Source of the DNA: Candidatus Uhrbacteria bacterium
Lineage (GTDB): Bacteria; Patescibacteriota; Patescibacteriia; UBA9934; GWF2-40-263
Length of the DNA stretch: 64,000 nucleotides
Direction: 5' to 3'
Assembly (NCBI GenBank): GCA_026395055.1
Contig: JAPLZK010000002.1
Location: forward strand, 192,154-256,153
The notes under the pieces are model-generated. The model saw only the letters and a list, made by a program, of their open reading frames with translations, was not told where the DNA came from and ran no database searches. Of the stretch, positions 6,073-58,789 are shown one piece after another (within the stretch, counting starts at the first letter, position 1; every line of letters starts with the position of its first letter). The translations under genes and the position numbers were made by a program.

Positions 6073-6165
6073 GAAGTAGTCAAGAAGTCGAGGGGTCAAG
6101 TAGTCAAGTCTACTAACTCGTTCGAAAACTCGACTACTCGACTTCTTAACTACTCGACTACTCTT
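6073..6165. repeat. Long imperfect palindrome built from 8-mer repeats, centred on TTCGAA (6121-6126)
   Basis: Left arm has 3-4 copies of (T)AGTCAAG; right arm has 4 copies of the inverse CTCGACTA. Confidence 0.7.
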
Positions 6166-6166
6166 T

Positions 6167-7501
6167 ATGACTTCCACTCTCATCAAATCCATCGGCCAAT
6201 ATGTTGGTCAAGAAGTTCAACTCCAAGGTTGGGCATACAACTTTCGTTCAAGCGGAAAAATTTTCTTTTTGCAATTGCGTGACGGTTCGGCTCGTGTGCA
6301 GATTGTGTATTCGAAAGCGGATGTATCTGAGGAAACATGGAGCGCGCTCGAATCACTTCGTCTCGAGTCGTCTGTTCGTGTATTCGGTCGCGTAAAAGAA
6401 GACGCGCGCGCACCGTCCGGATTCGAACTCGATGGGTTGAGTCTCGAAATCGTCTCGCTCGCCATGGATGAATATCCGATCGGAAAAAAAGATCACGGTC
6501 CAGACTTCTTGCTCGACAATCGTCACTTGTGGTTGCGTTCTGACAAACAGTGGGCAATTCAGCGTGTGCGTGACACGATCATCACCGCAACATACAACTA
6601 CTTTCACGAAAATGATTTCGTAAAATTTGATACACCAATTCTTACACCAACCTCTTGTGAGGGAACAACCGAGCTCTTCGAAATGGATTACTTCGATATG
6701 GGCAAGGGTGAACCAGAGGCCGTGAATACGGGGACTGGTAAAGCATATCTTTCACAGTCAGGACAGTTGTATCTCGAAGCAGGAATTATGTCTCTTGGTC
6801 GCGCGTTCGACTTTGGTCCCGTATTTCGTGCGGAAAAATCAAAAACACGCCGACATCTCACAGAATTTTGGATGATGGATGCCGAAGCGGCGTTCGTTGA
6901 ACATCAGGGTAACATGCAGATTCAAGAAGGATTGATCTGCCGCATCGTTCACGATGTCCTCGCGAATTGCCAACATGAACTCAAGGTTCTCGAACGCGAC
7001 ACAAAGCCGCTCGAAGCGATTCAAGCACCGTTCGTTCACATGACTCACCAAGAAGCGATCGCGAAACTTCGCGAGCTTGGTTCGGACATCGGTGACATGG
7101 ATGATCTCGGTGCCGACGATGAAACGATTCTCACACAACAATTCGATCGTCCAATTTTTATCGAAAAATATCCCGCAGCGGTCAAAGCCTTTTACATGAA
7201 GCGTGATCCATCCAATCCAGAATTCGTTTTGAACAACGACATGCTCGCACCGGAAGGGTACGGCGAAATTATCGGCGGTTCACAACGTGAGGATGATTAC
7301 GAAACACTTCTTGAACGCATGCGAGAGCACAATCTCGCGATCGAACCATTTCAATGGTATCTCGATCTGCGAAAATACGGATCTGTACCACATTCAGGAT
7401 TCGGTTATGGCCTCGAGCGCATCACGGCTTGGATGTGCGGCCTCCAACATATTCGCGAGACAATTCCATTTCCACGTTTGATCAATCGACTGACGCCATA
7501 A
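6167..7501 (+). CDS. asnS: Asparaginyl-tRNA synthetase
   Basis: Class IIb aaRS with N-terminal OB anticodon-binding domain, motifs 1-3 (FRAEKSKTRRHLTEFWMMDAE ... GGSQRE ... GFGYGLERI) and AsnRS-typical KAFYMK. Confidence 0.85.
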   Translation: MTSTLIKSIGQYVGQEVQLQGWAYNFRSSGKIFFLQLRDGSARVQIVYSKADVSEETWSALESLRLESSVRVFGRVKEDARAPSGFELDGLSLEIVSLAMDEYPIGKKDHGPDFLLDNRHLWLRSDKQWAIQRVRDTIITATYNYFHENDFVKFDTPILTPTSCEGTTELFEMDYFDMGKGEPEAVNTGTGKAYLSQSGQLYLEAGIMSLGRAFDFGPVFRAEKSKTRRHLTEFWMMDAEAAFVEHQGNMQIQEGLICRIVHDVLANCQHELKVLERDTKPLEAIQAPFVHMTHQEAIAKLRELGSDIGDMDDLGADDETILTQQFDRPIFIEKYPAAVKAFYMKRDPSNPEFVLNNDMLAPEGYGEIIGGSQREDDYETLLERMREHNLAIEPFQWYLDLRKYGSVPHSGFGYGLERITAWMCGLQHIRETIPFPRLINRLTP

Positions 7502-8071: not shown

Positions 8072-9385
8072 ATGCAAAATCGAACTCTCGTCAGAGACTT
8101 AAATGACAAACTCGGTCAGACCGTCATTGTTGCGGGTTGGCTTCACCGTTTGCGCGATATGGCCAAATTCGGATTCGCCATCGTGCGCGATCGAAGCGGG
8201 TTGGTTCAGGTTGTTTTGACTGCGGAGCAATTGGAGCAACTGAAAGGTCTACAGGTTGAAACAGTGCTAAAAGTGACGGGTATTGTTGTGGAAAAACGCA
8301 CGAAAGATCCAAATGCACACGAGGTTGAAATTCAGGCAACAACGCTCGAAATTTTGTCTCCTGTTACAGACGTCACGCCCGTTGAAATCAATAATCATGA
8401 TCTTGATGCGCGACTTGAAACCCTTTTGGACAATCGTGTTGTAACTCTGCGTCATCCAAAACAGCGTGCGATTTTCCGCGTGCAAGCGGCATTGGTGCAC
8501 GGATACCGTGCCTATATGGAAAAGCAAGGGTTCACAGAAATCTTTTTTCCTGTGCTTGCGGGGGCGGCATCAGAAGGTGGATCAGAATTTTTTCGCGTGG
8601 ATTATTACGGACGTGATGCGGCGCTCACACAATCAGCGCAGTTGTATAAACAAATCACCATGGGGGTGTATGAAGGTGTGTACGGGGTTTCTTATTCGTT
8701 CCGCGCAGAAAAATTTTCCACTTCGCGCCATTTGACCGAGTTTAACCAATTGGAGTTTGAAGTCGGATTCATTGATAGTATGGAGGAGGTTATGGAGTAT
8801 GTAGAGGGTTCCACACGCGGAATGTTTGCGGCTATTCAGGAAGAGTGTAAAGAAGAGCTGGCATTGCTTAACGTTGTCCTCCCTCCACTTGGAGAAAAAT
8901 TTCCGCGCATTAAATTGATAGATGCACTGCACGTGTATAAGGCGGAAACGGGCATTGATGAAACACACGAGCCAGATTTGTCTCCCGCAGCGGAACGATG
9001 GTTATCAACGGTATGGGCTCCAAAGGTTCATGGGTCCGGATTCGTTTTTGTTACGCATTATCCAGAAACAAAGCGTCCGTTCTATACAAAGCTTGATCCA
9101 GAAGATCCAACATCAACACTCAGTTTTGACTTGATCGGATTTGGAAGTGAAATTGTTTCCGGAGGAATGCGCGTGAATCGTTATGATGAACAGCTTGCAC
9201 GTATTCAGTCAAAAGGTTTGCGTGTAGAAGATTTTGAGGATTATCTCATGATGCATAAATACGGCATCCCACCAGAAGGTGGATTCGGAATGGGATTGCA
9301 ACGTCTGACACAAAATATCTTGGGATTAGCAAATATCAAGGAGGCAACAATTTTTCCTCGCGATGTTCAACGTCTCAGACCATAA
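8072..9385 (+). CDS. aspS: Aspartyl-tRNA synthetase, archaeal/eukaryotic type (short, ~437 aa)
   Basis: Class IIb architecture without the bacterial GAD insertion domain: FRAEKFSTSRHLTEFNQLEFE, GSEIVSGGMR, GGFGMGLQRL. Length and motifs match type-2 AspRS. Confidence 0.8.
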   Translation: MQNRTLVRDLNDKLGQTVIVAGWLHRLRDMAKFGFAIVRDRSGLVQVVLTAEQLEQLKGLQVETVLKVTGIVVEKRTKDPNAHEVEIQATTLEILSPVTDVTPVEINNHDLDARLETLLDNRVVTLRHPKQRAIFRVQAALVHGYRAYMEKQGFTEIFFPVLAGAASEGGSEFFRVDYYGRDAALTQSAQLYKQITMGVYEGVYGVSYSFRAEKFSTSRHLTEFNQLEFEVGFIDSMEEVMEYVEGSTRGMFAAIQEECKEELALLNVVLPPLGEKFPRIKLIDALHVYKAETGIDETHEPDLSPAAERWLSTVWAPKVHGSGFVFVTHYPETKRPFYTKLDPEDPTSTLSFDLIGFGSEIVSGGMRVNRYDEQLARIQSKGLRVEDFEDYLMMHKYGIPPEGGFGMGLQRLTQNILGLANIKEATIFPRDVQRLRP

Positions 9386-14617: not shown

Positions 14618-15073
14618 CTAGCGGGTCGAAGGGGCCTGAGGCAGAGAGTACGCGCCCGTGATGGGGCTGTAACGCAGAGCCTGGATTTGCGTGCAGGAAT
14701 CCGGTGAAAGACCGAGTTCCGAGAAGCCGCGTTTCCAATCGCCGTTCTCGACCTGAACACGGTTGTAGTGTCCGGAAAGGTGCATGAGGTTGCCGCCTTG
14801 CGGATCCTTCCAATAAATTCCGTCCGAGTGCGGTTCGTTGTCGATGGAAGCGCCATGGAGTTCCCAACAGCGATACGGCTTGCCGTTCATATCCATCTGA
14901 ATGACGACCCAATCGGCGCCGAAGCTTTCAGCGTTGCAAGAAGCACAGGAGCGTCCCATGCCAGCACAGCCGACCATGACGAGCATGAGGGAAATCCACG
15001 AACGATTCAATAGATGTCTGAACACGAGAACCTCACGTTCTCGAAGCGTCTGTTGCTTCGATCGAGGAAACAA
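14618..15073 (-). CDS. Hypothetical secreted Cys-containing protein
   Basis: N-terminal signal-peptide-like segment LMLVMVGCAGMG, 151 aa. Confidence 0.4.
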   Translation of the reverse strand: MFPRSKQQTLREREVLVFRHLLNRSWISLMLVMVGCAGMGRSCASCNAESFGADWVVIQMDMNGKPYRCWELHGASIDNEPHSDGIYWKDPQGGNLMHLSGHYNRVQVENGDWKRGFSELGLSPDSCTQIQALRYSPITGAYSLPQAPSTR

Positions 15074-15111
15074 TAGGTGAATGTGTGCATTTTGTCAATA
15101 GATTCCCGCAA

Positions 15112-15146
15112 ACAAAAAACCACCACGTGACGTGATGGATTTTTTG
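15112..15146. terminator. Bidirectional terminator, same hairpin family
   Basis: aaacaaaaaa-ccaccacg-tga-cgtgatgg-attttttgg. Better paired on the minus-strand RNA and follows the minus-strand tRNA. Confidence 0.65.
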
Positions 15147-15221
15147 GTAGCTGGAGAGGGGGTCGAACCCTCGACCTCGGGCTTATGAGTCCCGCGCTCT
15201 AACCAACTGAGCTACCCAGCC
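15145..15221 (-). tRNA. tRNA with CAT anticodon (elongator tRNA-Met or lysidine tRNA-Ile2)
   Basis: Reverse complement folds as a cloverleaf: acceptor GGCTGGG / TCCAGCT, D-arm GCTC-AGTTGGTTA-GAGC, anticodon loop CTCATAA, T-arm GAGGG-TTCGACC-CCCTC, 3' ACCA encoded. C11:G24 is elongator-like. Confidence 0.8.
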
Positions 15222-15348
15222 GTAAAAACTTTCTAAATTGGCGATCTTTCGGCTTGCGCTCCGCGTGCTTCATCGAAGGACGTCTATGTCCATCTCCGTC
15301 GCATGCTCGCGCTGCACCGAAATCTCATCCAATTTAGAAAGTTTTTAC
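15222..15348. repeat. Perfect 20-bp inverted repeat (GTAAAAACTTTCTAAATTGG / CCAATTTAGAAAGTTTTTAC) enclosing an 87-nt GC-rich spacer
   Basis: Arms at 15222-15241 and 15329-15348 are exact reverse complements. The element lies between the two minus-strand tRNAs and abuts the 5' end of the tRNA-CAT gene. Confidence 0.85.
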
Positions 15349-15374
15349 ACTCGCTTTGATTGGATGATTTTCCT

Positions 15375-15459
15375 TGGTGCCGACAGTGGGACTTGAACCC
15401 ACATGAGTTTCCCCACACGATTTTGAGTCGTGCGCGTATACCAGTTCCGCCATGTCGGC
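15375..15459 (-). tRNA. tRNA-Leu (CAA), type II with long variable arm
   Basis: Reverse complement GCCGACA...CACGA-CTCAAAA-TCGTG...GTGGG-TTCAAGT-CCCAC-TGTCGGC-ACCA; anticodon CAA; 85 nt. Confidence 0.85.
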
Positions 15460-15558
15460 CTGTTAAGGTAGCGATAAGATATCAAAATAACGAAAAACTG
15501 TCCAGCTCAGAATCTAAGGTATTGTTGACAGTTCGACCATGATCAGGCATACTTTCGC

Positions 15559-15635
15559 TGCGGGGTAGAGCAGCCTGGCAGCTCGTCGGGCTCATAACCC
15601 GAAGGTCATTGGTTCAAATCCAATCCCCGCAACCA
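15559..15635 (+). tRNA. Initiator tRNA-fMet (CAT)
   Basis: Near-identical to the canonical bacterial initiator. Three consecutive G:C pairs 29-31:39-41 (TCGGG-CTCATAA-CCCGA), A11:U24 in the D-stem, GGTTCAAATCC T-arm, weak U1:A72 end pair, CCA encoded. Confidence 0.85.
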
Positions 15636-15639
15636 AAAA

Positions 15640-15670
15640 TCCATCACCTTGTGTGGTGGTTTTTTGTTTC
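15640..15670 (+). terminator. Rho-independent terminator after tRNA-fMet, same hairpin family
   Basis: ccatcac-cttgt-gtggtgg followed by ttttttgtttc. Confidence 0.7.
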
Positions 15671-15751: not shown

Positions 15752-16657
15752 ATGCTTGATAAAGCATTGGTCTCATTTCTGATGATCAATCGTGTTTTCC
15801 GAGCGATTCGGATGCATAAACAAGGGGTTGTGAGAATGCTGATCACGATCAGTGTGGGGATTGTTTGTCTTGCAGCATGTGTGCTGCTTGATTACGTCAC
15901 GAGTCCTACATACAAGCGATTCAAAGATGAAGAAGTGCCGAGCTCGGTCGGATATCCGGCGGGCTGGAAACTGAAATCACTTTCCGAACAAGTGAAAATT
16001 CTCAAGCGACATTTTCCGCTGCTTGACGTCTCGCATGCGGAAGAACTTGCGATGGCATATCAGCACAACGGAGCATTGGTTCTTCCAGATGGAATGGATG
16101 GACTCGTCGTGATTCCAAAGTACATGGCGGTTGCAAAAGAAGTTGGTTCGGCGGATTGGCCGGCGTATAATCGTGCAATGGCGCTGTTGATCTCTGTCAT
16201 TAAAAAGACACGTACGGATTTTGTTCTGTATGCAGATGGTCTTGGTCCAAACAATGAGCGTCTCTCGAAGAGTGCTCGCCGATTTTACGAGGCACAGAAG
16301 GATGTTCCTGGTGATGTACTCGTCATTCCGGTTCAGACAGGACTTTTCCATCGTGGAAGGTCGTTCCGACGCGCTCGCGCACTATTTGCGCCAAATGAAT
16401 TCGATCTGGATGCGTTCGCGATTGGATGCGTCATTCTCACACACCCGGAACGATTGCGGAATGCAGATGCTCTCTGGATCGATTGCGCCGGAACGGAAAC
16501 GCAAGATCTTGGAAAGATTCTGAGCATGTTCGGTATGGGTTTTTCGAACACCTCCGGTTGGGGTTTTGAGAACAACGAGCTTCGATACGTTTCCTACAAG
16601 TTGCGCGTCGACTTTGCTCACCCGGGATTTGGTCCTGGATCAACGGTTCTGTTTTAG
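15752..16657 (+). CDS. Hypothetical membrane-anchored protein
   Basis: 301-aa ORF with an N-terminal TM helix (MLITISVGIVCLAACVLL); no recognised catalytic motif. Confidence 0.45.
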   Translation: MLDKALVSFLMINRVFRAIRMHKQGVVRMLITISVGIVCLAACVLLDYVTSPTYKRFKDEEVPSSVGYPAGWKLKSLSEQVKILKRHFPLLDVSHAEELAMAYQHNGALVLPDGMDGLVVIPKYMAVAKEVGSADWPAYNRAMALLISVIKKTRTDFVLYADGLGPNNERLSKSARRFYEAQKDVPGDVLVIPVQTGLFHRGRSFRRARALFAPNEFDLDAFAIGCVILTHPERLRNADALWIDCAGTETQDLGKILSMFGMGFSNTSGWGFENNELRYVSYKLRVDFAHPGFGPGSTVLF

Positions 16658-23512: not shown

Positions 23513-23598
23513 TTTTGTCATTGCGAGGAGTTCGACGACGAAGCAATCTTTAGACATATCCTGTTTAGAAAAGATTGCTTCGCTTCCCTCGCAATGAC
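23513..23598. other. 86-bp bipartite imperfect hairpin in the topA-dprA intergenic region
   Basis: cattgcgagg...gaagcaatcttt-(19-nt loop)-aaagattgcttc...cctcgcaatg: a ~10-bp stem plus a 12-bp stem. Confidence 0.6.
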
Positions 23599-23657
23599 AA
23601 TTAGTATTCAATAATGAATTGAAAATACGTGAATCGAACCGTTTCGTCAACTTGTCG

Positions 23658-24812
23658 CTATTTTTGCCGCGTATAATAACGTCCGCCTTCGTGTTTGATA
23701 ATTCCTTTCATCTCAAGCAACGTGAGTGTGCTTCCAAGCGTGTCGATGGGAAGGAGTGTTGCGTGCGCAACTTCGTCTACGTGCACTGGGTCACGTGCGA
23801 GTTGTTCAAGAATGAGACGTTCCGTTTCAGAACGAGGTTGGTATGCAAACACAACCCCTCCCAACCTCCCCTTTGCAGGGGAGGAGTTTGTGCGTGCTTC
23901 TCGAGAAGCCCCTCCTGCAAAGGAGGGGTTGGGGGAGGTTTCGGGCCCAAGCATATCTTCCGTACACGTAACAGGAATCGCGCCCATCTTAATGAGATTA
24001 TTCGGCCCCTCACTCATTTCAGAGTCAATGTCGCCCGGTATTGCGTAAACGTCTCGGCCTCCTTCTAGTGCAGCGCGTGCGGTGATGAGTGAACCAGATT
24101 TTTGTGCGGCCTCGATGACAAGTGTTCCGTGCGCGAGTCCGGCAATGATTCTGTTTCTGAGAGGGAAGTGAAATGGCATAGGGAGAGTGCCCACCGGAAA
24201 TTCTGAAACAATGGCTCCACCATGCGCAAGAATTTGTGAAGCAATGTGCCTGTTGCCTGCAGGATAAATGGATGCAGTATCTACCCCTGAACCCAAAACG
24301 GCAATCGTAGTTCCGCCGTGCGTGAGCGTTGATTCATGCGCGAGCGCATCAATGCCGTACGCAAGTCCGCTCACAATGACGACACCAGATTCTGCAAGAG
24401 ATCCAACAATGCGTCCACCAACACGTAATCCGTATTTACTTGGGTTACGCGTTCCGACAACAGAGATGTGTTTACGAGATGGATCTGGAAGTGTTCCACG
24501 AAAAAACAGAATGGGTGGGGGATCGTAAATTTTTGAAAGGAGTGGGGGGTATTCTGGATCGCGACGCGTAACAGCGGATACATCCGCTTCAAGAAGTTTT
24601 TCTAGTTCTTGGTCTGGACTGATGTGTAAACGCGTTTGTAAAAAATGATTCGCAAGGTTTGCATCAAAGCCGGCTTCCAGTAAATCCATGACCGATGCCG
24701 AAAACGCGCGTTCCATGTTTGGAAACGCGCGGTATAATTTTCCGATACGTGCAGATCCAAAGTTTGGAACGCGCGCAAGAGCTAACCAATATTTTAAATC
24801 TGCTTGTGGCAT
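23658..24812 (-). CDS. dprA: DNA processing protein DprA/Smf (contains an in-frame ~30-aa insertion in the linker)
   Basis: Rossmann-like DprA core (GTRNPSKYG...VSGLAYGIDA...GSGVD) and C-terminal winged-helix-like tail. The linker TSPNPSFAGGASREARTNSSPAKGRLGG is encoded by the palindromic element at 23853-23940. Confidence 0.85.
   Translation of the reverse strand: MPQADLKYWLALARVPNFGSARIGKLYRAFPNMERAFSASVMDLLEAGFDANLANHFLQTRLHISPDQELEKLLEADVSAVTRRDPEYPPLLSKIYDPPPILFFRGTLPDPSRKHISVVGTRNPSKYGLRVGGRIVGSLAESGVVIVSGLAYGIDALAHESTLTHGGTTIAVLGSGVDTASIYPAGNRHIASQILAHGGAIVSEFPVGTLPMPFHFPLRNRIIAGLAHGTLVIEAAQKSGSLITARAALEGGRDVYAIPGDIDSEMSEGPNNLIKMGAIPVTCTEDMLGPETSPNPSFAGGASREARTNSSPAKGRLGGVVFAYQPRSETERLILEQLARDPVHVDEVAHATLLPIDTLGSTLTLLEMKGIIKHEGGRYYTRQK
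23853..23940. repeat. GC-rich palindromic element: two 32-nt inverted arms around a spacer carrying CTTCTCGAGAAG
   Basis: Arm consensus CCCCTCC-TGCAAAGG-AGGGG-TTGG-GGGAGG-TT. Each arm can form its own CCCC/GGGG hairpin. Lies in-frame inside dprA. Confidence 0.8.
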
Positions 24813-35622: not shown

Positions 35623-38600
35623 ATGAACCTGTATAGATTGTTCAAATCGATTTCCATTCTAGCCGTCCTTGTTTGTACGGGAATCTTTTTTGTCCACCCA
35701 GTCTTTGCAGTAAGTCCCACAGACTCCAATGCATTTTCTTCCTTTGCGGCTAGTGCGGGGTTTGCAGCGGGCCCTTCGGTGATTGTGATCATTGCACGAT
35801 TGATTCGTACATTCATTTCATTTCTGGGAGTGATTGCGGTTATCATCGTCCTTTACGGTGGGTTCATGTACATGACCGCCGGAGGAAATGACGAACGCGT
35901 CAAAAAAGCAAAAAAGATCATTCTGAATGGAATTATTGGTCTTGTTATTGTTCTTTTGTCATTTACGATCGCTCAGTTCATTGTGGGTAAGTTGGTGGCA
36001 GCAACGTCAGAGGCAGATATTTCTGCCTACTGTTTACAAAATCCAACAGATCCAACGTGTAAAAAATCACCTCCGTTTCCACCAGCGGTTCCACCGTTCA
36101 CATTGAATCCACCAACCTCTCTTATTCAATGCGCGGCAGGGATTCGTAATTTGAAATTGGTATTTGTTTTTTCAAAATCTGTAAAAGATGAAAAGGGGAT
36201 TACCGTAAAACAAAATGGCGCAGATGTTCCAGGGACGTTTTCGTTCTCCGGATCTAAAATCATGTTTGTTCCAGACGCAAAATGTGATGCCCCTAATGAC
36301 ACGCTTCATTGTTTTGCAAAAGACTCCACGTTTCATGTAGAGGTTGATTCCACAAAAGTAAAATCCTCAAATGACATCGCACTCACCTGTAAAGTTGTTG
36401 GGGGAGTAAATCCTTGTTCGTTTAATTTTACAACAGGCTCTTCTGTGGACGTGAAACCTCCACAAGAAGTTTCGTTCGTAGATCCAAAAGACGGTGCAAA
36501 AGCCATTTTGGGTTTAAGTAAAGCGCTTCAAGTAAAGACCGTTGATGATTCAGGAGTCGCAAGTGTTGATTTTTTTGCGATTGATGGAAGTGTTCCGATC
36601 AATATATCTTCTACTCCTGTAAATCCAACGGTCGCGAATGGACTCACAACCGCGAACTTCAATGGTGTTTGGGTTCCGGTAGGTCTTGAAACAAACGCAC
36701 CCTATTCCGTTTGGGCAACGGCCACAGACTGTGCAGGGAACACAAAAACTTCTAGCAAAGTTTCTCTCATGTTACGTGCACCAAACTGTGATAACAGTGC
36801 GCAAGATGCCGCGGCTCCGTATGGTGAAACAGGAAGCTGTAAGCCTGGAGAAGCGTGTGATTGTGGTGGATCATCTACAAGTCCATTTTACTGCGGACTT
36901 TGTAAACCTTCTGCATGTACAAACAGTGCGGAATGTTCATCTGGATATTGTATTGCGGGAAAATGTCAGGATGTCGCCGTGATCCAATCGGTTTCTCCAG
37001 ATAACGGTGCAGTAAACAACTTAGTAACCATTACAGGTTCTGGATTCGGAACAGTGCCGGGTACAATTGATTTTCTTGGAACAGAAAAAGAGAATACAAC
37101 AAAGTCGGCCAATGCATATCAGTGTGGAGCAAGCGTTTCGTGGTCACCAAAAGAAATTGTTGTACAGATTCCAGCCGGATCCATCGATGGTCCGTTGAAA
37201 GTAAATATTCCTGCAGTTGGAGCAGATCCCGCACAGTCTGACAGAACAGATGATGCTGTAGGTCCTGCCATGTCTTTGTTTGATGTAAACGCGATTAAGC
37301 GTCCTGGTTTGTGTTCTGTTGCTCCTGTAGCCGCAGAAGTAAATACTCCTATTACCCTTACGGGATTATCGTTTGGATCCACACAAGGTTCTTCTTCTAT
37401 TTATCTTTCGAGTTTTGAAGCAAAAGCAACCAATTGGACTGGAACAGTTCTTGGTGCAACGGTTCCTGGAGTAGAAAGTGGTAAGTATGATGCACAAGTT
37501 TTTACCGGTGATTATTTCTGTTTGAATGCAAGTGGGGTAAAGGTAAACCCAGCTGTCACCTGTTTTTCTAATGATGATTGTACAAAAGTTGATCCTGCAT
37601 ACACGTGTGGAACGTCTTGGTGTTCAGAATCACTAAAGTTTTGTCAGAATAATAGTGCGTGTGGTGTAGGAGAAGGGAAATGTGTGGATGTGCGCGTTGG
37701 ATCAAACACAAAATCTTTCGTTGCCACCAATACACCTTCTGCCTCTAAGCCGGTTATTAAATCCATCGATCCTTCCAGAAAATTGTGTTATTGGTCTGCG
37801 GATCAACTTAAACCTTTGCAAACAAAGCAGGGGCTTTCAGACACAAACTTTAATAGTTTTGTAGATTCATTGAATGGAACAACGATGGGTATTGGATCCT
37901 TGTGTTCTGCAGATACAGATTGTTCAAAAAAGATTTCAGGCGATACGTACAACGGTGTCTGTAAAGAGTATCCAAACACAGGTGGTCCCGGTCAATACAT
38001 TACGATTTACGGGTTAGGGTTTGGAACAGCGAAAGGAACGGTAAAGTTTACAGATGCAAACGAGTATTACGCTCTCGGAGACGTTTCATTTCCAGATGCT
38101 TGTGGAAAAGATTATTGGCATGATGACCACATCATTGTAAAGGTTCCAAAAAGTTACAGCAGTCAAGCGGGGGATCTCACAAATACAAATTACAACGTAA
38201 CTGTATCGACCCAAGGAAATGTTGCTTCTGATCCGGTCGCGTTTCACGTTTATCCGCAGGTTGTTCCGGGACCAAGTATTTGTTCTATTGTTCCAAGTTC
38301 GGGGCCTATTGGAACATCTGTTTCACTCATTGGAGAAAATTTTGGGTTACCTGTAACAAACACGGGGTACAATCTTCAGGCTGTTTTTACAGATAATCAG
38401 CAATCAAAACCTGGAAGTTGGGCAAATACACTTGTTTCAAATATTTTAGTTCCGGCTACGGCAAAGTCTGGTCCGGTTCATCTTGAATTTGGTTCCAACT
38501 CTCTTAATTTTACGGTGGGAAACTGTAAAACAGATTCAAAAATTGTTTGTTCAGCTGGACAAACCTGTTGCGCAAACGGAACGTGCTCGCTGTCGTGTGA

Positions 38601-41600
38601 TGACACGCCAAAAATTTCACACTTTGCTTACAAAGTTTCCACAAGTCCTTTTCCGGTCGCGCCAACGGTGGTGGTGAACTGTTCTGATCCAAAATTTGCA
38701 AAACCTTCTCCATCTCCTTCTCCGCTTTGGAGTAAGCAAGACAATATTTGTGTTACGTCTGCTGTTACGGCTTCCTTTAGTGTTGCCATGGATCCAAATA
38801 CACTCACTGCAACAAACATCAAAATCCAGAAATGTACTTCAGAAGCAAATGGGGTCTGTGCCAATTCGGGATGGCAAGATGTTGTGGGAGCATTTCAGGT
38901 CCCAAGTGCGGTTGCATTTCAATGGGCACCAACACCTCCGGCTGTGCTTGATGCGAATACGTTATATCAGGTCACCATCAAGGGTGCATCCGCTCCAGGT
39001 GGTGGCGTAAAATCAAAGGGAAGTGGATTAACCCTGGGTGTATCCATGGCCCAAGATTTTTCTTGGCAATTCCGTACATCTGCTTCAAATAAAGATTGTG
39101 GCATCGGAAGTGTGGCTGTTTCACCAGCAAATTATCTTGCGACCAATGCGAGTGAAACCATTGGGTATTTATCTCAACTCCTTTCGAATCAAGATAGCTG
39201 TATTGTCTTGTCGTGTAATCCGTACAAGGTTCGTTGGAATTCTGATACATGGAATGCAACATTTGCGCCAAGTCATACACTCACCGTTCCAGATGCTGCG
39301 GCAGATCCAGCACTCGGCTCTTGTTCTGCCTCTGTTTTTCCAGACGCAAACACCATTCCAGGATTCCCAGCACATATTTCTTCTGTCGTTATCAATGATG
39401 GGAAAAACCCGCATGCAACCGGTACAGGAAATTTGAACATTGCTCTCACAAATCCAAAGGTAAGTGATTATTTTCCAAATTGTTCTTCTGCCTGTGGAAA
39501 TGCCATGCCGTGGGTTACGTTTAACGTTGCCATGAATCCTTGGTATTTCAGCAATGCAGGAGCGATTCGTATTTTCAAATGCCAAAATAGTTTATGTGAT
39601 CAAAGTCAGGAAACGTTTCAAAATATTATTTCAGGAATCACGTACGATGCCGCAACTTATAAAGCGAAAATTGGATTAAACACATCACTCACACAAAATA
39701 CGTGGTACCGCATTGTCGTTTCTGGAACAATCAAATCTGGAACGCAGGCACCTCTTTCCAATTCCGGATCCAATTTTGGTACGTCAGAAAATAAATTCTT
39801 CTCCGGAGATTTTTCTTGGAGATTTAAAACAAAAGATTCCGCCATCTCTTGTGTGGTAGACCGTGTTGGGGTTTCTCCAAAAACAGCAACGCTTAACTAT
39901 GTTGGACAACGACAAGAATACAGCGCCACAGCTTTTGGGGCGCCAGATGATTGTTCTGTGACAGGCCAAGCTCTTCAATCAACAGGATGGGGTACATGGG
40001 GAGCAACAGATACTCCAAACAAAATCGGAGCCGCTTCTTATGTTTTGGGGGTGGATCATAAATTGAATGAAATTACAACGTTCATGTTGAATGAAGGTTC
40101 GCTCGCGCTTGCTTCTACGCTTCCAAAAACATGTGCAGCAAATTGTTTGTTTACCGGAAATCCAATCAACGTTGGACAAGCGGTCTGTGGAAACTCGTCT
40201 ATAGAAAACGGTGAATCCTGTGATGATGGCAACACAACAGACGGAGATGGCTGCTCGAGCATCTGTCTTAAAGAAGGAACGGTTGCGCCAACATGTGGAA
40301 ACGGTGCGATGAATACAGGAGAACAGTGTGATGACGGAAATACAATAGACGGCGATGGTTGTTCTTCAAAATGTTTATTTGAAGGAGCAACATCTATCAA
40401 ATCTGTTTGTGGAGATGGTGTTTGGGATCACACGGATAAGAATGGCGGAGAAGCATGTGATGATGGAAATACGAAAAATGGCGACGGTTGTAATTCAAAT
40501 TGTTTGCTTGAAGGTGGGGTCGCTGCCTACTCAAGCGCACGTTGTGGCGATGGTTCCGTTGGTGTTGGAGAAACGTGTGATGACGGAAACACTGTGGACG
40601 GTGATGGTTGTTCCTCTATTTGTCTGAATGAAGGAACCGTAAAGGGAACAGATGCCACAAAAGCTCAGTGTGGAAATGGTGTTACAAACGTTGGAGAAGA
40701 TTCCGGATGTGATCTTGGCGTTGGATCTGTTGCTCCAGGCTGTTCCACAAAATGTTTGAAACTGGGTTCAAGTCCAAGTTATCCTTCGCCATCTATCTGT
40801 GGAAACGGAGGGGCTTTGGAAACAGGGGAACAATGTGAAGCTGCGGCAGGTGCATCTTATGTAGCGGGTCCTTACGGAGTTGCAGAAGTTTCTCCTGGTG
40901 CTTCAGTTGAGGTGGAAAAGGATATCACAAAAGCAACATTCGGTTATGCGATTTCAAATGTTTCTGCAACAGTAGGTGGAAAAACAGGAGTGGGTGAATT
41001 TAAGTTGCTTTGTTCTTGTGAGGCAGACAACCAGTGCGGAACAAAATCTGGAGATCCAACAAAGACGCTTGGTTGCGGTGCTTCAAAGTGCTGTTATGAA
41101 CGTCCGGCTATTACCGCATCCGCACCGGGGGATAATGCAACAGGCGTTTGTCGTAATACCGCGATCTCGTTTACGTTTGATCAAGAAATGGATGCGAATA
41201 GTTTTGGGTCCGTTGATTTGGATGGAGATGGAAAAATCTCTACCGCAGAGACAGATCCAAATTTGCAGCTCGAGTTGATTACCATGAAATCCGCATTGGG
41301 AGTTGATGAAAATGTAACAGCGGCAAATTGTCCGTATTATGCTCAACCGGTCGGATTCTTACATGCAAAGAATTTGCTTGTATCTGCTTGGAATTGGATT
41401 AAGGGCTTGTTTGGTCAACCCGCGATGGCAAACGCCACAACACAATGTTACGTTCCAACAACGTATGAACAAGATCCAGCAACGCACCAAGTGTATCTCA
41501 GATATACAGAGCGTTTGTTGCCACTCGCGAAATATAAATTAACCGTGAAAACAAAAAACGGAAATGCAAAAGGAATCTTGAGTAAAAATCAGGTCAGTAT

Positions 41601-44600
41601 TTGTCTCGGAGACAATGGAACGGCTTGTCAGTCTGTTTCACAAACAAATACGTTTACGACCGGATCGGATATTTGTTTGCTGGATGTTGCGCAGACAACA
41701 GATGAGGGAATCACACCAGCACCACCTTCATATCTTTCAACAAGTCCTGGGTATTATTCAAAAACAAACGAAACGCACAATTTTAGTGTGAAGCCTCTTT
41801 CGTATCGAAAAAATACAGGTTTGTTGGAAGAAATTACATCCATTCCGAATGTGTATTCCTGGACATGGAGTTGGGGGGCTCCTGTGAAAGATACGGGAAC
41901 AAATGTTGATATTTTGGGAACGATTGCAGTAAGCACAACAAGCAACTCGCAATATAAAGCGCTTGGAAAAAATGGTTCTGGCGATGTTATTGCAACAGCA
42001 ACCATTACATCAGATGCGGTAAGCAAGGTTTCTACAACCGGATCCGGAGTTTCCGGTCATGTCTCAGAAGTTGCCTTCTTGTGTGAAAACCCATGGCCAG
42101 ATTTGGCACACGGTGTTCCGTTTGTGGAAACGGGGGCTAACACAAACTTCTCTCTCTTTTATTGTCGCGACATTGGAAAACCCGGAGAAGGAAAAATGCT
42201 TCCTGTACTTGCGCTTCCTCCAACAGACGCAACACCAGATCAAAAGATTATTAACACAAACGTGTTGAAGGAGTTAGTGTTCCATGTTGAAGGAACGAAA
42301 GACTCTATTGGGGTGCGCGTGCTCTCGAATCCAAAATATTTGTCTCCATTGGCATGGTTTCAATCTCAAGGATTTACGGGAACGCCAAAAACAACAACAC
42401 TTGATGGGTACGAAGCTGTTCAGACAGGTACAACCATTTATGCGGCCGCGGCAAATAGAAATGGTTCAAATCTCTACTCAAACATTTACGTTGTTTCATT
42501 TAACTCAGATGCAGGAAAAGATGCACAAGATATTTTTGATCTCGTGCTCAAAAATTTCCACTTGAATGCGAATGACACAGGTGCTACGGGTGTTTCACAT
42601 GTTGGTTTGTGTATGAGTGGAAACGCCTATACGCCAATTGCAGGCCCATTCGTCGCGTGTTCATGGGACGGAGATTGTTTGAATCAATGTAAACCAGAAG
42701 GAAAATGTTCTGTAACAGGAACCGTCTGTGATCCTAAACTAGGAAATACAGAATGTGCCGCAGATCCAAATGCGTTCTGTGATGCGGATAAACAAAAATT
42801 GATTCGTGACACCAAGCGTTTGACGGATATGACAAGCATGGTCGCTACGTTTGAAAAATATGGATCTTCACACGGTCATTGTTCCGTTACAAAAAATCAA
42901 ACATGTTCCACGAATGCACAGTGTTCCGGAACAGAAACGTGTGTTCCAGGTTATCCAACGGTGCAATCCGGTACATTTATTCCATCCATGAGTAACAGTA
43001 TTTGGCCTTCATGGAACAGTACGCTCGGAAATGCGGTGGGTGGAGCACTTCCAACAGATCCGCTTAACCAATACTGGGCACAATGTAAAAACGTAGGAGC
43101 AGGTTATGACTCTGCAACGTGTTGGAACAGTACACAAGGAAAATTTGTGTGTCCGGATGGTTCGCATGTGTACGGATATCAAAACCAGGGCGGAGAAGAT
43201 TACACATTATCTACAGAACTTGAATACGGTGCAGTTGCTTGGGTGAATAAGATTGATCAATCCGCATCAGACCATGCAACCATTCAAGCGTCGTATGGCT
43301 TAAACAAATCGCCAGCTGGATTGTTAGATGGATTTACGATCGCTCCACAATATTGCAACGCAACCACGTTTGGAAGTTCAACCATTTGTGGAGATGGTGT
43401 GAAGGGGGTTGGAGAAGCGTGTGAAAAAGGAGAAGTTAAATCTATTGCGTGCGCGGCAGGCGCTGGGTTTATTAACGTGACATGTAAGAGTGATTGTTCG
43501 GATTTCCAAGATGAAGCTGCGGCAAAAGCTGCGGGAGCAACCTGTAAACCATTCGCTTGTGGAAATGGAGTAAAAGATCCAGGAGAAACGTGTGATGACG
43601 GTGCATTAAACGGTACGTACGGACACTGTGGGGCAAACTGTACCCTTGCAAACGCATTTTCTTGTGGTGACGGTTACCTTGCCGGAAACGAACAGTGTGA
43701 TTGTGGAACGCCAACAAACTTCTCAACGCTTGCCGGAGCAAGCTGGGCAAAATCGAATAATCACTGCGATACCTATAATGGTGGATATTCCGCGACCGGA
43801 AAAAACTGTACGGTTGACTGCAAGCTTCCAGGACCAATGTGTAGCGACGCGATTGTGAACGACTCTTCTGAAGTTTGCGATAAGAGTACAGAAACGTATG
43901 CGGGAGCATTGAATGCGGATGGAACAAAGTGTAACGCATCATCTGGATGTGCAGTTGCCGCGTGTACAAAATCTAAAATTTGTACAGCGGGAACAAATAT
44001 TGGATCGACCTGTACAACTGACCTAAATTGTCCGACAGATGCAGCGGATGTTTGCGCATCAGATACTTGTGTGGCAAAAAAATGTTCCGCAAGTGGGAAG
44101 GCATGCGGAACAAATGCAGACTGTGTGGGTAAATGTTCCGTTAGCGGAAAGCTTTGTGGAACGACAGCAGATTGTGCGGGGAAATGTTCTGCTGAGCTAT
44201 ACGATCTAACCAGAACGCGCACGTGTCAGAATTATGGCACTTCACCCGTCTCTCAAGCGTGCTCATGGATAACGAATGCAAATAGTGGATGGGGAGACTG
44301 TGCAGGTGGTCCACAACAATGTGGAAATGGGAAAAAGGAAGGAGCAGAAGAGTGTGATGATGGAAATAGTTCAGATAATGATTCTTGTACAAACGCTTGT
44401 AAGTTGAATGTTTGCGGTGACAACAAAGTAAACGTCGGAATCGAATCCTGTGATAGTGGTGGAGCAAACGGAACCGTTTGTAACGCAGCATACGGTGCAA
44501 GCTGTAACTTCTGTAATAAATTCTGTCAGTACAAAACACAATCTGGTCCGTATTGTGGAGATGGAGTGATAAATGGAAATGAGTATTGTGATGGAAATGA

Positions 44601-45642: not shown

Positions 45643-46428
45643 ATGGATTTCGGTGATCATCCCGCACAGCCAAGACGCATCTCAAGAAAACTCGTCCTCA
45701 TTATTCTTGGGGGAATTGTTTTGGCTGGTGGGATCTTCTGGGGAGTTTTTTCCCTGATCCATCAGAATGCTCCGTTGACGACTTCAAGTTCTTCTTTATC
45801 AAACGTCTTTGGGAACTCTGCGCAAACTTCATCTGATCCGTGTGTGCAAACTTCGGACGCAAGTGTCTGTAAGATTACAAAAGCAAAAGATCTTGCAATC
45901 TCTTCCAAAAAACCTGATGCTTGTGACGTTCTCAAAGATGCAGATAAAAATGATTGTTACTGGAGTGTTGCGCGCGTAGCAAATGACGCCTCGATATGTG
46001 GAAAAATAGCTGATAAAGATATTTCCGCGCGTTGCTCGACGGAATTAAGTGCATCCGCGGCTTTTTCCGCGTCAGATGGAACGTTGTGTGATAAAATAGG
46101 GGACGTAAATGTGAAATCAAACTGTCAGAAGGTAATCACTTCAACAAAGGATCTCGTTTGCGCAAGCACAGATACAGATTGTCTGTTTACACGAGTGCTC
46201 GCAGCGGCAAATCAGGCACAAGATTCAGATGTCTGTAATGTTCTTGACCCAAAGCGTGAAGCGGATTGTAGAGCGCAGGTTCTTGTGAACGACCCAGATC
46301 ATGATGGTCTTGATTCCACCCAAGAAATCGTCTTGTATCACACAGATCCGCATAATGCAGATACGGATGGTGATGGGTACTCCGATGGTTCGGAAGTGAA
46401 TTCGGGACACGATCCTTTGAAAAAGTAA
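45643..46428 (+). CDS. Membrane-anchored Cys-rich protein with C-terminal TSP3/dockerin-like Ca-binding repeat pair
   Basis: N-terminal TM (LVLIILGGIVLAGGIFWGVF), 16 Cys in the ectodomain, C-terminus DPDHDGLDSTQEIVLYHTDPHNADTDGDGYSDGSEVNSGHDP. Confidence 0.7.
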   Translation: MDFGDHPAQPRRISRKLVLIILGGIVLAGGIFWGVFSLIHQNAPLTTSSSSLSNVFGNSAQTSSDPCVQTSDASVCKITKAKDLAISSKKPDACDVLKDADKNDCYWSVARVANDASICGKIADKDISARCSTELSASAAFSASDGTLCDKIGDVNVKSNCQKVITSTKDLVCASTDTDCLFTRVLAAANQAQDSDVCNVLDPKREADCRAQVLVNDPDHDGLDSTQEIVLYHTDPHNADTDGDGYSDGSEVNSGHDPLKK

Positions 46429-46476
46429 TTATTCTACACGCCTTGCCTTTCGGCAGGCAGGTAATCGCCATTCAAT

Positions 46477-47112
46477 ATGTTTGATGAAATTTCAAAAGAA
46501 CCAGAGGATGTGTTCGCACAAACGGACGCTGCAGCGCCGCAAATGACGCCACCAACCATGAACGCACCTCAACCTACCGTTGCGCCAGCGCCTGCAATGG
46601 CCGCCGCGTCTGCTCCGGTTATCGTGTCAGCATCTGAAAAAAGACCGTTTCCATGGAAACTTGTCGTTCTTTTTGTGGCGATTGTTGTTGTTGTTGGACT
46701 CGCGTTTTTCCTTAGCATGAAAATTCTCAACTCTCGTACGCCTGTTACGCCATCCGCACCTGTTGAAACTGCACAGCCTGCGACACAGGTTCCAACTCCA
46801 GAAGTTCCCGCTGTTGCACCCACAACAACACCTGTTGATCAAACTGCGCCAGCCCCAACTCCTGTTGTCGATCAAACACTCGATTCAGATAAAGATGGTC
46901 TGACGGATGTTCGCGAAGCACAACTCGGAACCAATCCAAATAATCCAGATACAGATGGAGACGGCTTGTTTGATAAGGAAGAGGTGGATGTTTACCACAC
47001 AAATCCATTAAATCCAGATACAGACGGAGATGGATTCAAAGATGGTGATGAAGTTAAGAAAGGATATAATCCAAATGGCCCAGGAAAACTTCTTCAAATT
47101 CCTCAAAAATAA
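46477..47112 (+). CDS. Single-pass membrane protein with Pro/Thr-rich linker and two DxDxDG Ca-binding repeat pairs
   Basis: TM LVVLFVAIVVVVGLAFFL, linker PVTPSAPVETAQPATQVPTPEVPAVAPTTTP, then DSDKDGLTDVREAQLGTNPNNPDTDGDGLFDKEEVDVYHTNPLNPDTDGDGFKDGDEV. Confidence 0.7.
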   Translation: MFDEISKEPEDVFAQTDAAAPQMTPPTMNAPQPTVAPAPAMAAASAPVIVSASEKRPFPWKLVVLFVAIVVVVGLAFFLSMKILNSRTPVTPSAPVETAQPATQVPTPEVPAVAPTTTPVDQTAPAPTPVVDQTLDSDKDGLTDVREAQLGTNPNNPDTDGDGLFDKEEVDVYHTNPLNPDTDGDGFKDGDEVKKGYNPNGPGKLLQIPQK

Positions 47113-47114
47113 GT

Positions 47115-58630: not shown

Positions 58631-58664
58631 AAAAACACAGCCCTATGAGGCTGTGTTTTTTTTG
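58631..58664 (+). terminator. Rho-independent terminator
   Basis: acacagcc-ctatga-ggctgtgt followed by tttttttg. Confidence 0.75.
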
Positions 58665-58678
58665 AACAAATCTTTGGC

Positions 58679-58756
58679 TGGCGGACCGGACGGGATTCGA
58701 ACCCGCGATCTTCTCCGTGACAGGGAGACGTGTTAACCGGGCTACACCACCAGTCC
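58679..58756 (-). tRNA. tRNA-Asp (GTC)
   Basis: Reverse complement GGACTGG-TG-GTGTAGCC...TCTCC-CTGTCAC-GGAGA...GCGGG-TTCGAAT-CCCGT-CCGGTCC-G-CCA; anticodon GUC. Confidence 0.85.
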
Positions 58757-58789
58757 AACAGCCACAGATTTGTTCCGAAATGTGACGAA

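What the first reader, a model, noticed from the sequence alone, without database searches (positions are those of the whole stretch)
15145..15459. Perfect 20-bp inverted repeat enclosing an 87-nt GC-rich element between tRNA-Leu and tRNA(CAT), abutting the tRNA 5' end
GTAAAAACTTTCTAAATTGG (15222-15241) and its exact reverse complement (15329-15348) flank an 87-nt segment with further internal complementarity (gcttgcgctccgcgtgc / gcatgctcgcgctgc). On the minus-strand precursor this 127-nt structure sits immediately 5' of the tRNA(CAT) body. A 20-bp perfect stem is far beyond what is needed for termination. It resembles RNase III processing stems, a small structured ncRNA, or a remnant or target site of an inserted element at a tRNA gene.
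Basis: seen in the sequence. Interest (0 to 1): 0.55.

Follow-up and report, generated by a model that had tools for sequence, protein, structure and literature searches.

The report
Long hairpin spacer inside tRNA operon
A real, single-copy 127-base hairpin lies in the spacer of a two-tRNA operon of an uncultivated Uhrbacteria (CPR) bacterium; it is most likely a small palindromic insertion that is transcribed and then cut out during tRNA maturation, which makes it unusual in sequence but ordinary in kind.

Summary
GTAAAAACTTTCTAAATTGG (15222-15241) and its exact reverse complement (15329-15348) enclose 87 nt that are themselves imperfectly self-complementary. The whole 127 nt folds into one rod of 47 bp. 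It is the most stable 130-nt fold in the 64-kb window.

On the minus strand the order is: promoter-like site, tRNA-Leu(CAA), 26-nt AU-rich spacer, hairpin, tRNA(CAT) with no gap, terminator. No promoter-like or terminator-like site lies between the two tRNAs, so the hairpin is predicted to be part of the precursor.

It matches no Rfam family. No second copy was found in the window, in about 660 kb of Patescibacteria and other fetched loci, in phages, in plasmids, or in exact 20-mer scans of the genome, metagenome and viral collections.

The architecture is MITE-like: perfect AT-rich terminal repeats, a GC-richer core and a possible TA duplication. Multi-copy status, a clear target duplication and a parent IS were not shown, so it is not filed as a MITE.

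Best reading, with the mechanism inferred: a lineage-specific palindromic spacer element removed by a double-strand-specific RNase (RNase III type) plus RNase P.

The spacer of close relatives could not be retrieved. The locus is plastic: the tRNA block is inverted relative to relatives, and one relative carries an IS at its edge.

The parts
15476..15504 (-). Promoter-like site TGGACA-17-TATCTT (with TG before the -10), about 16 nt upstream of tRNA-Leu. Presumed start of the Leu-hairpin-tRNA(CAT) transcript.
   Evidence: 9 of 12 consensus matches. Four such sites were found in this 1 kb against 0.9 expected.
15375..15459 (-). tRNA-Leu(CAA), first gene of the operon, with CCA encoded.
   Evidence: ARAGORN; Rfam tRNA, 60.3 bits.
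15349..15374 (-). 26-nt AU-rich spacer (AGGAAAAUCAUCCAAUCAAAGCGAGU) between the CCA of tRNA-Leu and the hairpin. It is almost entirely unpaired in the predicted fold.
15329..15348 (-). 5' arm of the hairpin in the RNA sense (GUAAAAACUUUCUAAAUUGG); perfect 20-bp terminal repeat.
15242..15328 (-). 87-nt core, 57% GC and imperfectly self-complementary: 27 further base pairs broken by small bulges and internal loops, with a 6-nt apical loop.
15222..15241 (-). 3' arm of the hairpin (CCAAUUUAGAAAGUUUUUAC). Its last base is position -1 of tRNA(CAT).
15145..15221 (-). tRNA(CAT), elongator-like (Met versus Ile2 not resolved), with G1-U72 and CCA encoded. Second gene of the operon.
   Evidence: (62.9 bits). 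The 3' part is identical in relatives L005 and L006 over the bases their contigs hold.
15110..15144 (-). Intrinsic terminator of the operon (stem 15138..15120, then UUUUUUGUUU). It is one arm of the 35-nt, 89% inverted repeat whose partner is 15635-15669.
   Evidence: (I1).
15559..15669 (+). Divergent initiator-type tRNA(CAT) (15559-15635) with its own promoter-like site (15525-15553) and a terminator (15641-15669) that is the inverted partner of 15110-15144. It is context for the inversion and not part of the hairpin.

Best explanation
The element is a lineage-specific, non-coding palindromic spacer in a tRNA-Leu(CAA)-tRNA(CAT) operon of a Candidatus Uhrbacteria (Patescibacteria/CPR) chromosome. 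It is transcribed from the promoter upstream of tRNA-Leu as part of one precursor. There it folds into a 127-nt rod of 47 bp, whose basal 20 bp are perfect Watson-Crick and AT-rich, stacked directly on G1 of tRNA(CAT).

Inferred mechanism: a double-strand-specific endonuclease of the RNase III type cuts within the perfect basal helix. This separates the two tRNAs and turns the rigid helix at position -1 into a short single-stranded leader. RNase P then removes that leader. The AU-rich 26-nt spacer and the upstream stump are trimmed from the 3' end of tRNA-Leu.

Inferred origin: insertion of a small palindromic, MITE/REP-like element at a TA two bases upstream of the tRNA. An anciently selected RNA is less likely because the arms are perfect while the core has decayed, the composition is two-part, and the locus is a rearrangement hotspot.

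What is shown: the sequence, the predicted fold, the position, the predicted transcription unit, and the absence of known-family matches or other copies. What is inferred: transcription, the nucleases involved, and the mobile origin.
For: The repeat and the fold are real and extreme. The element is the most stable 130-nt fold of the window on either strand, at -65.3 kcal/mol, 5 SD below the window mean.

The only promoter-like sites are upstream of tRNA-Leu and of the divergent tRNA. The only terminator-like sites follow tRNA(CAT) and the divergent tRNA. None lies in the spacer or the hairpin. tRNA(CAT) therefore seems to depend on read-through of the hairpin.

The predicted fold of the whole transcript keeps both acceptor stems, with the hairpin as an independent domain and no gap before G1. 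The transcribed strand folds better by 9 kcal/mol and has 3 G-U pairs against 1.

The arms are 20 of 20 Watson-Crick pairs with no G-U and 25% GC. The core is 57% GC and has 27 pairs interrupted by bulges and internal loops. The ends read G-TA-AAAAC...GTTTT-TA-C, which is compatible with a TA target duplication.

The locus is plastic. The roughly 560-bp tRNA block between two inverted terminator modules is inverted relative to relatives L005 and L006. Independent assemblies of the same strain confirm both junctions. Relative L089 has an IS3-like transposase gene ending inside the terminator module.

Other unrelated long palindromes occur in the window at 23515-23600, 23853-23940 and 6075-6154. 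The terminal motif (GTCATTGCGAG) of the 23515-23600 palindrome recurs in two other fetched loci.

Co-transcribed MITE hairpins that serve as RNase III substrates, and TA target sites, are documented for Correia elements (PMC2649163).
Against: No second copy of the arms or the core was found anywhere. The searches covered the window, about 600 kb plus about 64 kb of fetched, mostly Patescibacteria loci, phages and plasmids, GTDB species representatives, and viral contigs. The JGI metagenome scan gave only two single-arm chance matches in unrelated DNA.

No target duplication longer than the possible TA is present, and no transposase gene lies in the window.

No relative's Leu/Met spacer could be retrieved, so there is neither an empty site nor covariation. 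No expression data exist. An RNase III gene was not seen in the 64 kb, and the rest of the genome is not available. The 3-to-1 G-U asymmetry is too small to prove selection at the RNA level.
Confidence: 0.45

Rival explanations
1. It is a native, selected processing stalk with no mobile origin. On this reading the hairpin evolved in place as the operon's internal processing signal, like the leader-trailer helices of rRNA operons or the RNase III sites next to tRNAs in the E. coli metY-nusA-infB operon and the phage T4 tRNA cluster (those two examples are from my own knowledge).
For: The transcription-unit and fold evidence is the same as for the best explanation. The helix abuts G1 exactly. 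A second tRNA in the window, tRNA-Asp, has a 15-bp leader-trailer stem (-20.5 kcal/mol, z = -4.9). That is the strongest such duplex among 27 tRNAs compared, most of them from Patescibacteria loci. This hints at a habit of long helices at tRNA ends in this genome.
Against: A helix selected only at the RNA level would be expected to tolerate G-U pairs, yet the arms are 20 of 20 Watson-Crick while the core is decayed. tRNA-Leu and the initiator tRNA in the same locus have no comparable stems. No conservation could be shown.
Confidence: 0.2
2. It is a stable small RNA with its own function. RNase P cleavage at G1 of tRNA(CAT) and 3' processing of tRNA-Leu would release a hairpin RNA of about 127-153 nt with a blunt base. 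Such an RNA would resist 3' exonucleases, would accumulate, and could act for example as a sponge or a protein decoy. tRNA spacer-derived sRNAs in E. coli and the stable RNAs of the T4 tRNA cluster are comparable cases (own knowledge).
For: The fold is very stable, and the 3' end is defined by the RNase P site. The element is the most stable structure in the window.
Against: There is no Rfam match even at E <= 10. No homologue was found anywhere. The structure has no sizeable single-stranded loop or bubble to act as a binding surface: its largest loops are 3-4 nt and a 6-nt apical loop. No expression data exist.
Confidence: 0.1
3. It is a transcriptional attenuator or partial terminator that sets the ratio of tRNA-Leu to tRNA(CAT). 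The A-tract, hairpin and U-tract layout could cause some RNA polymerase to stop before tRNA(CAT).
For: The outer ends are GUAAAAAC...GUUUUUAC, that is, an A-run and a U-run flanking a strong hairpin.
Against: The scan did not call it terminator-like. The stem next to the U-run is AU-rich, and the U-run is followed by AC and then the tRNA. tRNA(CAT) has no promoter of its own, so efficient termination would silence what may be an essential tRNA gene.
Confidence: 0.08
4. It is a DNA-level element: a recombination or inversion site, or a cruciform linked to the local rearrangement, for example a tiny invertible segment bounded by 20-bp inverted repeats.
For: The inverted repeats are perfect. The surrounding tRNA block has inverted relative to relatives.
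Against: The inversion end points are the terminator modules at 15110-15144 and 15635-15669, not the hairpin. No invertase or integrase gene was found in the window. The core is itself palindromic and carries no promoter-like site, so flipping it would change little.
Confidence: 0.05
5. It is an assembly artefact, that is, a fold-back chimera in the MAG contig.
For: Independent Logan assemblies of the same strain stop inside the flanking tRNAs and do not cover the hairpin.
Against: The palindrome is imperfect, with bulges and mismatches in the core. It lies in the interior of a 339-kb contig between two intact tRNA genes. Fold-back artefacts are perfect and sit at contig ends (own knowledge).
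Confidence: 0.03

Closest known systems
Correia repeat-enclosed elements (CREE) of Neisseria, MITE-like, 70-157 bp
   Same: Both are small and non-coding with terminal inverted repeats that form a hairpin when co-transcribed. In CREE that hairpin is bound or cut by RNase III, and insertion is often at TA (PMC2649163). The element here has AT-rich ends, a possible TA duplication and a position inside a transcription unit.
   Different: CREE occur in about 100-250 copies per genome and have a conserved core. Here only one copy is known, and there is no sequence similarity to CREE. The core here is itself palindromic. The host is a CPR bacterium and the site is a tRNA-tRNA spacer.
ERIC, REPIN and other palindromic intergenic repeats (own knowledge: ERIC is an imperfect palindrome of about 127 bp; REPINs are REP doublets that form hairpins of about 100 nt)
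   Same: The size (127 nt), the whole-length imperfect palindrome, the intergenic position and co-transcription with neighbouring genes.
   Different: Those families are defined by many dispersed copies, and REPINs also by a RAYT transposase. Neither was seen here.
RNase III processing helices: rRNA leader-trailer stalks, the RNase III site downstream of tRNA metY in the E. coli metY-nusA-infB operon, and the RNase III site in the phage T4 tRNA cluster (own knowledge)
   Same: Each is a regular double helix of at least 20 bp inside a stable-RNA precursor, next to a tRNA. Cutting it separates the products and leaves short tails for RNase P and exonucleases.
   Different: Those sites are conserved within their lineages and their cleavage has been shown experimentally. 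Here neither conservation nor cleavage is shown, and the helix is a self-contained hairpin 5' of the tRNA and does not enclose a product.
tRNA spacer-derived small RNAs (3'ETS-leuZ and the metZWV internal spacer in E. coli; own knowledge)
   Same: An RNA released from the transcribed spacer of a tRNA operon as a by-product of maturation.
   Different: Those RNAs are short and largely single-stranded sponges with known targets. This one is a near-continuous duplex with no obvious pairing surface.

Membership tests
MITE (miniature inverted-repeat transposable element) | Terminal inverted repeats | tested here: met
   20-bp arms, 100% complementary.
MITE (miniature inverted-repeat transposable element) | Small and non-coding | tested here: met
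   127 bp. The only ORFs that overlap it (20-52 aa) are not on record as called genes, as tested for the 52-aa one.
MITE (miniature inverted-repeat transposable element) | Flanking target-site duplication | tested here: inconclusive
   Only a possible TA...TA is present, if the true ends are AAAAC...GTTTT. The 8-bp flanks match at 3 of 8 positions, which is no better than chance (read directly).
MITE (miniature inverted-repeat transposable element) | Several dispersed copies in the genome or in relatives | tested here: not met
   There is one copy in the 64-kb window. None was found in about 660 kb of fetched loci, GTDB representatives or viral contigs. The JGI metagenome scan gave only chance single-arm hits. 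Caveat: the remaining roughly 275 kb of the contig and the rest of the MAG could not be searched, and the collection scans needed an exact 20-mer.
MITE (miniature inverted-repeat transposable element) | Ends related to those of an autonomous IS | tested here: not met
   There is no transposase gene in the window. The hairpin has no significant similarity to L089, the contig that carries the IS3-like gene and its end.
RNase III processing stem | About two turns (20 bp or more) of regular double-stranded RNA | tested here: met
   20 consecutive Watson-Crick pairs at the base and 47 bp overall.
RNase III processing stem | Lies inside a transcript | tested here: inconclusive
   Consensus scans place a promoter-like site upstream of tRNA-Leu and a terminator after tRNA(CAT), with nothing between. 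This is a prediction only; there are no RNA data.
RNase III processing stem | Cleaved by RNase III, and rnc present in the genome | not testable with these tools
   No rnc gene lies in the 64 kb. The rest of the genome and experiments are out of reach.
Any described RNA family (Rfam 15) | Covariance-model match | tested here: not met
   Only the tRNAs match. There is nothing on 15222-15348 at E <= 10 or at gathering score over the whole window.
Intrinsic (Rho-independent) terminator | Short GC-rich stem followed directly by a U-run | tested here: not met
   The scan did not call it. The stem next to the U-run is AU-rich, and the U-run is base-paired inside the helix.
Invertible DNA segment (inverton) | Inverted repeats around a promoter, with a site-specific recombinase nearby | tested here: not met
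   The core has no promoter-like site. No recombinase gene was found in the window.

The most novel reading that the evidence does not exclude
This Uhrbacteria lineage matures tRNAs through rRNA-style double-stranded processing stalks cut by RNase III. On this reading the 127-nt hairpin stacked on tRNA(CAT) and the 15-bp leader-trailer helix enclosing tRNA-Asp (58664-58775) are two instances of one dedicated pathway. That pathway would replace the single-strand endonuclease (RNase E type) route used by model bacteria to separate tRNA precursors. The hairpin would then be a selected processing module and not a passenger.
Probability: 0.12. Interest if true: 0.6.

Novelty: new member of a known kind. 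Interest (0 to 1): 0.3.

Why it matters
If the reading is right, this is a clean example of a small palindromic element tolerated inside an essential tRNA operon because its own double helix supplies the signal for its removal. Such an example would be useful for understanding how reduced CPR genomes process stable RNAs. It has little wider consequence unless the stalk-based tRNA maturation idea holds across the lineage. The finding also flags a small recombination hotspot (inversion, IS insertion) around a tRNA cluster next to parAB.

Tried and rejected
1. Rfam at E <= 10 on the locus and at gathering score on the whole window gave only tRNAs.

2. The exact 20-mer was scanned in GTDB representatives (0 hits), viral contigs (0 hits, including a two-arm pattern) and JGI metagenomes. 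The metagenome scan gave 2 hits, both single-arm and in unrelated AT-rich DNA without tRNAs, so they are chance matches.

3. blastn of the element against phages and plasmids found nothing. blastn-short against all fetched loci found nothing.

4. Synteny through the right-hand gene failed. Eighty GTDB loci carrying homologues have no Leu/Met tRNA cluster. Closer relatives are available only as Logan contigs, which stop inside the tRNAs.

5. Synteny through the left-hand gene also failed. The closest relative has an IS3-like transposase gene in place of the tRNA. Magasanikbacteria relatives have smpB there. Another homologue sits in a phage-like contig.

6. I looked up spurious ORFs that overlap the hairpin or the tRNA-Leu antisense strand as handles to reach relatives' contigs. 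They are not on record and have no homologues.

7. Rejected readings: promoter inside the hairpin, terminator, and inverton.

8. I tested whether leader-trailer stems are general in Patescibacteria tRNAs. They are not: only tRNA-Asp of this window and one doubtful case stand out among 27 tRNAs.

9. Literature searches for CPR tRNA processing or for MITEs in Patescibacteria returned nothing relevant.

Full report
OBSERVATION. The sequence is as described. GTAAAAACTTTCTAAATTGG at 15222-15241 and its exact reverse complement at 15329-15348 are separated by 87 nt. With up to three mismatches allowed, the 20-mer occurs nowhere else in the window. Shuffles give 0.02 expected matches, and no shuffle gave two. 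ARAGORN and Rfam agree on three tRNA genes in the locus: tRNA(CAT) at 15145-15221 (minus), tRNA-Leu(CAA) at 15375-15459 (minus), and a divergent initiator-type tRNA(CAT) at 15559-15635 (plus). The 3' arm of the repeat, read on the minus strand, ends at position -1 of tRNA(CAT).

STRUCTURE. The 87-nt core is itself imperfectly self-complementary, so the whole 127 nt fold into one rod. On the minus-strand RNA the rod has 47 bp (22 G-C, 22 A-U, 3 G-U) at -63.8 kcal/mol. On the plus strand it has 45 bp with one G-U at -54.8 kcal/mol. The 141-nt stretch scores z = -8.8 (minus) and -7.6 (plus) against dinucleotide shuffles. In a scan of all 130-nt windows on both strands, this is the most stable fold of the 64 kb, at -65.3 kcal/mol, 5 SD below the mean. 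The element has two parts: perfect arms at 25% GC and a bulged core at 57% GC.

TRANSCRIPTION CONTEXT. On the minus strand a promoter-like site (TGGACA-17-TATCTT, 15504..15476) lies upstream of tRNA-Leu. A terminator (stem 15138..15120 plus a U-run) follows tRNA(CAT). No promoter-like or terminator-like site lies in the 26-nt spacer or in the hairpin. The predicted unit is therefore promoter, tRNA-Leu, 26-nt AU-rich spacer, hairpin, tRNA(CAT), terminator. Folding this whole transcript keeps both acceptor stems and leaves the hairpin as an independent domain with no gap before G1. All of this is prediction; there are no RNA data.

IDENTITY OF THE GENOME. The neighbouring 301-aa protein is 100% identical to a hypothetical protein of a Candidatus Uhrbacteria MAG on a 339-kb contig. 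The window encodes housekeeping chromosome genes: S5, L15, SecY, Adk, RuvX, RecO, ScpAB, ParAB, RelA-like, TopA, DprA, Der, FtsAZ, YbeY and IF3. It contains no transposase, integrase, invertase or RNase III gene.

SEARCH FOR RELATIVES OF THE ELEMENT. Rfam gives nothing but tRNAs, both at E <= 10 on the locus and at gathering score over the window. The exact 20-mer is absent from GTDB species representatives and from viral contigs, including a two-arm pattern. In JGI metagenomes it gives two single-arm hits in unrelated DNA without tRNAs, which I take as chance matches. blastn finds nothing in phages or plasmids. It also finds nothing in about 660 kb of fetched loci, most of them from Patescibacteria.

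SEARCH FOR THE SPACER IN RELATIVES. This failed for a technical reason. The only close relatives are Logan contigs that end inside the tRNAs. More distant genomes have lost the synteny. Looking up spurious ORFs across the hairpin or the tRNA-Leu antisense strand as handles also failed. Neither an empty site nor covariation is therefore available, and that is the main gap in this study.

WHAT THE RELATIVES DO SHOW. In L005 (84% identity in the right-hand gene) and L006 (50%), the elongator-type tRNA(CAT) sits on the same strand as the right-hand gene and directly upstream of it. It is identical to the window's gene over the bases those contigs hold. In the window that position is taken by the initiator-type tRNA, and tRNA(CAT) faces the left-hand gene. 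Both ends of the tRNA block carry the same terminator-plus-TTGACA module in inverted orientation (15110-15144 and 15635-15669, 35 nt, 89%). The roughly 560-bp block has therefore inverted by recombination between these modules. Independent assemblies of the same strain confirm both junctions (L001 and L002 on the right, L098 on the left). In L089 (76% identity in the left-hand gene), an IS3-like transposase gene ends inside the same terminator module. The locus is a small rearrangement hotspot.

INTERPRETATION. Two questions have to be kept apart: what the RNA does, and where the DNA came from.

On mechanism, tRNA(CAT) has no promoter of its own, so the hairpin must be transcribed through and then removed. 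A perfect 20-bp helix meets the length requirement of RNase III-type enzymes. A rigid helix ending at -1 is a poor leader for RNase P unless it frays or is cut. I therefore propose cleavage inside the basal helix by a double-strand-specific RNase, followed by RNase P at G1 and trimming of the tRNA-Leu trailer. This is the documented fate of co-transcribed Correia-element hairpins in Neisseria (PMC2649163). From my own knowledge it also resembles the RNase III sites next to tRNAs in the E. coli metY operon and in the T4 tRNA cluster.

On origin, several features favour insertion of a small palindromic element over an anciently selected structure. The arms are 20 of 20 Watson-Crick pairs with no G-U, while the core has many defects. 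My own rough estimate: if core-like pairing of about 0.67 per position applied to the arms, 20 perfect pairs would have a probability of about 3e-4. The composition is two-part. The ends fit a TA duplication. The locus is plastic. The same window holds other unrelated palindromes at 23515-23600, 23853-23940 and 6075-6154, and the terminal motif of the 23515-23600 palindrome recurs in two other fetched loci.

Against filing it as a MITE, no second copy, no clear target duplication and no parent IS were found. I therefore describe it as MITE-like in architecture and do not call it a member of that class.

RIVALS. The alternatives are a native selected stalk, a stable small RNA, an attenuator, a DNA-level recombination site and an assembly artefact. 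The native stalk is supported by the tRNA-Asp leader-trailer stem (15 bp, -20.5 kcal/mol, z = -4.9, the strongest of 27 tRNAs compared). The stable-RNA reading has no homologues and no obvious binding surface. The attenuator reading fails because the element is not terminator-like and would silence the downstream tRNA. The recombination-site reading fails because the inversion end points lie elsewhere and no recombinase gene is present. The artefact reading is unlikely because the palindrome is imperfect and lies in the interior of a 339-kb contig. Each rival is scored separately in its own section.

VERDICT. The feature is real and statistically extreme. It is new in sequence, and it is a new member of a known kind: a palindromic intergenic element or processing hairpin co-transcribed with stable RNA genes. 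Interest is modest (0.3). It would rise if the hairpin and the tRNA-Asp stem prove to be parts of a general stalk-based tRNA maturation route in this CPR lineage.

Noticed in passing
window 15110-15669; L005 1-140; L006 1-125; L098 1-160: The roughly 560-bp block holding the three tRNA genes is bounded by a 35-nt, 89% inverted repeat made of terminator-plus-TTGACA-promoter modules. The block is inverted relative to relatives: in L005 and L006 the elongator-type tRNA(CAT) faces the right-hand gene, whereas in the window the initiator-type tRNA does. Independent Logan assemblies of the same strain confirm both junctions.
   Followed up: yes
L089 3-1010 (relative with 76% identity in the left-hand gene): An IS3-like transposase gene ends about 15 bp inside the terminator module upstream of the left-hand gene and replaces the tRNA side. 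I assigned it by its DDE-integrase-type motifs and did not scan it against Pfam. This marks the edge of the tRNA block as an insertion hotspot.
   Followed up: partly
window 58664-58775 (minus strand): The 5' leader of tRNA-Asp(GTC), GAACAAATCTGTGGC, and its 3' trailer, GCCAAAGATTTGTTC, are complementary (15 bp, one mismatch). They form a stem that encloses the tRNA, 4 nt before G1 and directly after CCA, ahead of the gene's own terminator. It is the strongest leader-trailer duplex among 27 tRNAs compared (z = -4.9).
   Followed up: partly
window 23515-23600: An 86-nt near-perfect palindrome (TTGTCATTGCGAGG...CCTCGCAATGACAA) lies in the topA-dprA intergenic region. Its GTCATTGCGAG motif also occurs in fetched loci L029 and L035, so it appears to belong to a dispersed palindromic repeat family.
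   Followed up: partly
window 23853-23940: An 88-nt GC-rich palindrome (AACCCCTCCCAACCTCCCCTTTGCAGGGGAGG / CCCCTCCTGCAAAGGAGGGGTTGGGGGAGGTT) lies in frame inside the dprA ORF. It falls in the linker between the DNA_processg_A domain and the winged-helix domain (about residues 291-320). It is the second most stable fold in the window.
   Followed up: partly
window 6075-6154: An 80-nt imperfect palindrome (27-nt arms, 85% complementary) lies between recO and the first of two adjacent class II aaRS genes. It has no U-run after it.
   Followed up: no
window 15525-15635: The initiator-type tRNA(CAT) is close to E. coli tRNA-fMet as I recall that sequence, but it has U1 opposite A72 where C1 x A72 is usual. 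Its promoter-like -10 hexamer ends 5 nt before the tRNA start, so it may be transcribed with almost no leader.
   Followed up: no
window 14618-15025 (minus strand); L095/L096: The left-hand gene appears to encode a small protein with a lipoprotein-type signal (my reading: MFRHLLNRSWISLMLVMVGC) and has no Pfam match. A homologue with 64% identity lies inside a phage-like contig of tightly packed small genes with HNH and integrase hits.
   Followed up: partly
window 15752-16657 (plus strand): The right-hand 301-aa protein has no Pfam match but belongs to a large Patescibacteria-wide family (263 hits). Its alignment has invariant residues, including Q195, G197, H200, R201, T230, H231, D244 and C245 within motifs such as LTHPER and LWIDCAG. 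It may be an uncharacterised enzyme.
   Followed up: no
window 6167-7501 and 8072-9385; 35623-45633: Two paralogous class II Asp/Asn/Lys-type aminoacyl-tRNA synthetase genes lie about 570 bp apart. Separately, there is a giant 3336-aa ORF, which was not examined, followed by three ORFs (45643-48113) with bacterial TSP3 repeats.
   Followed up: no
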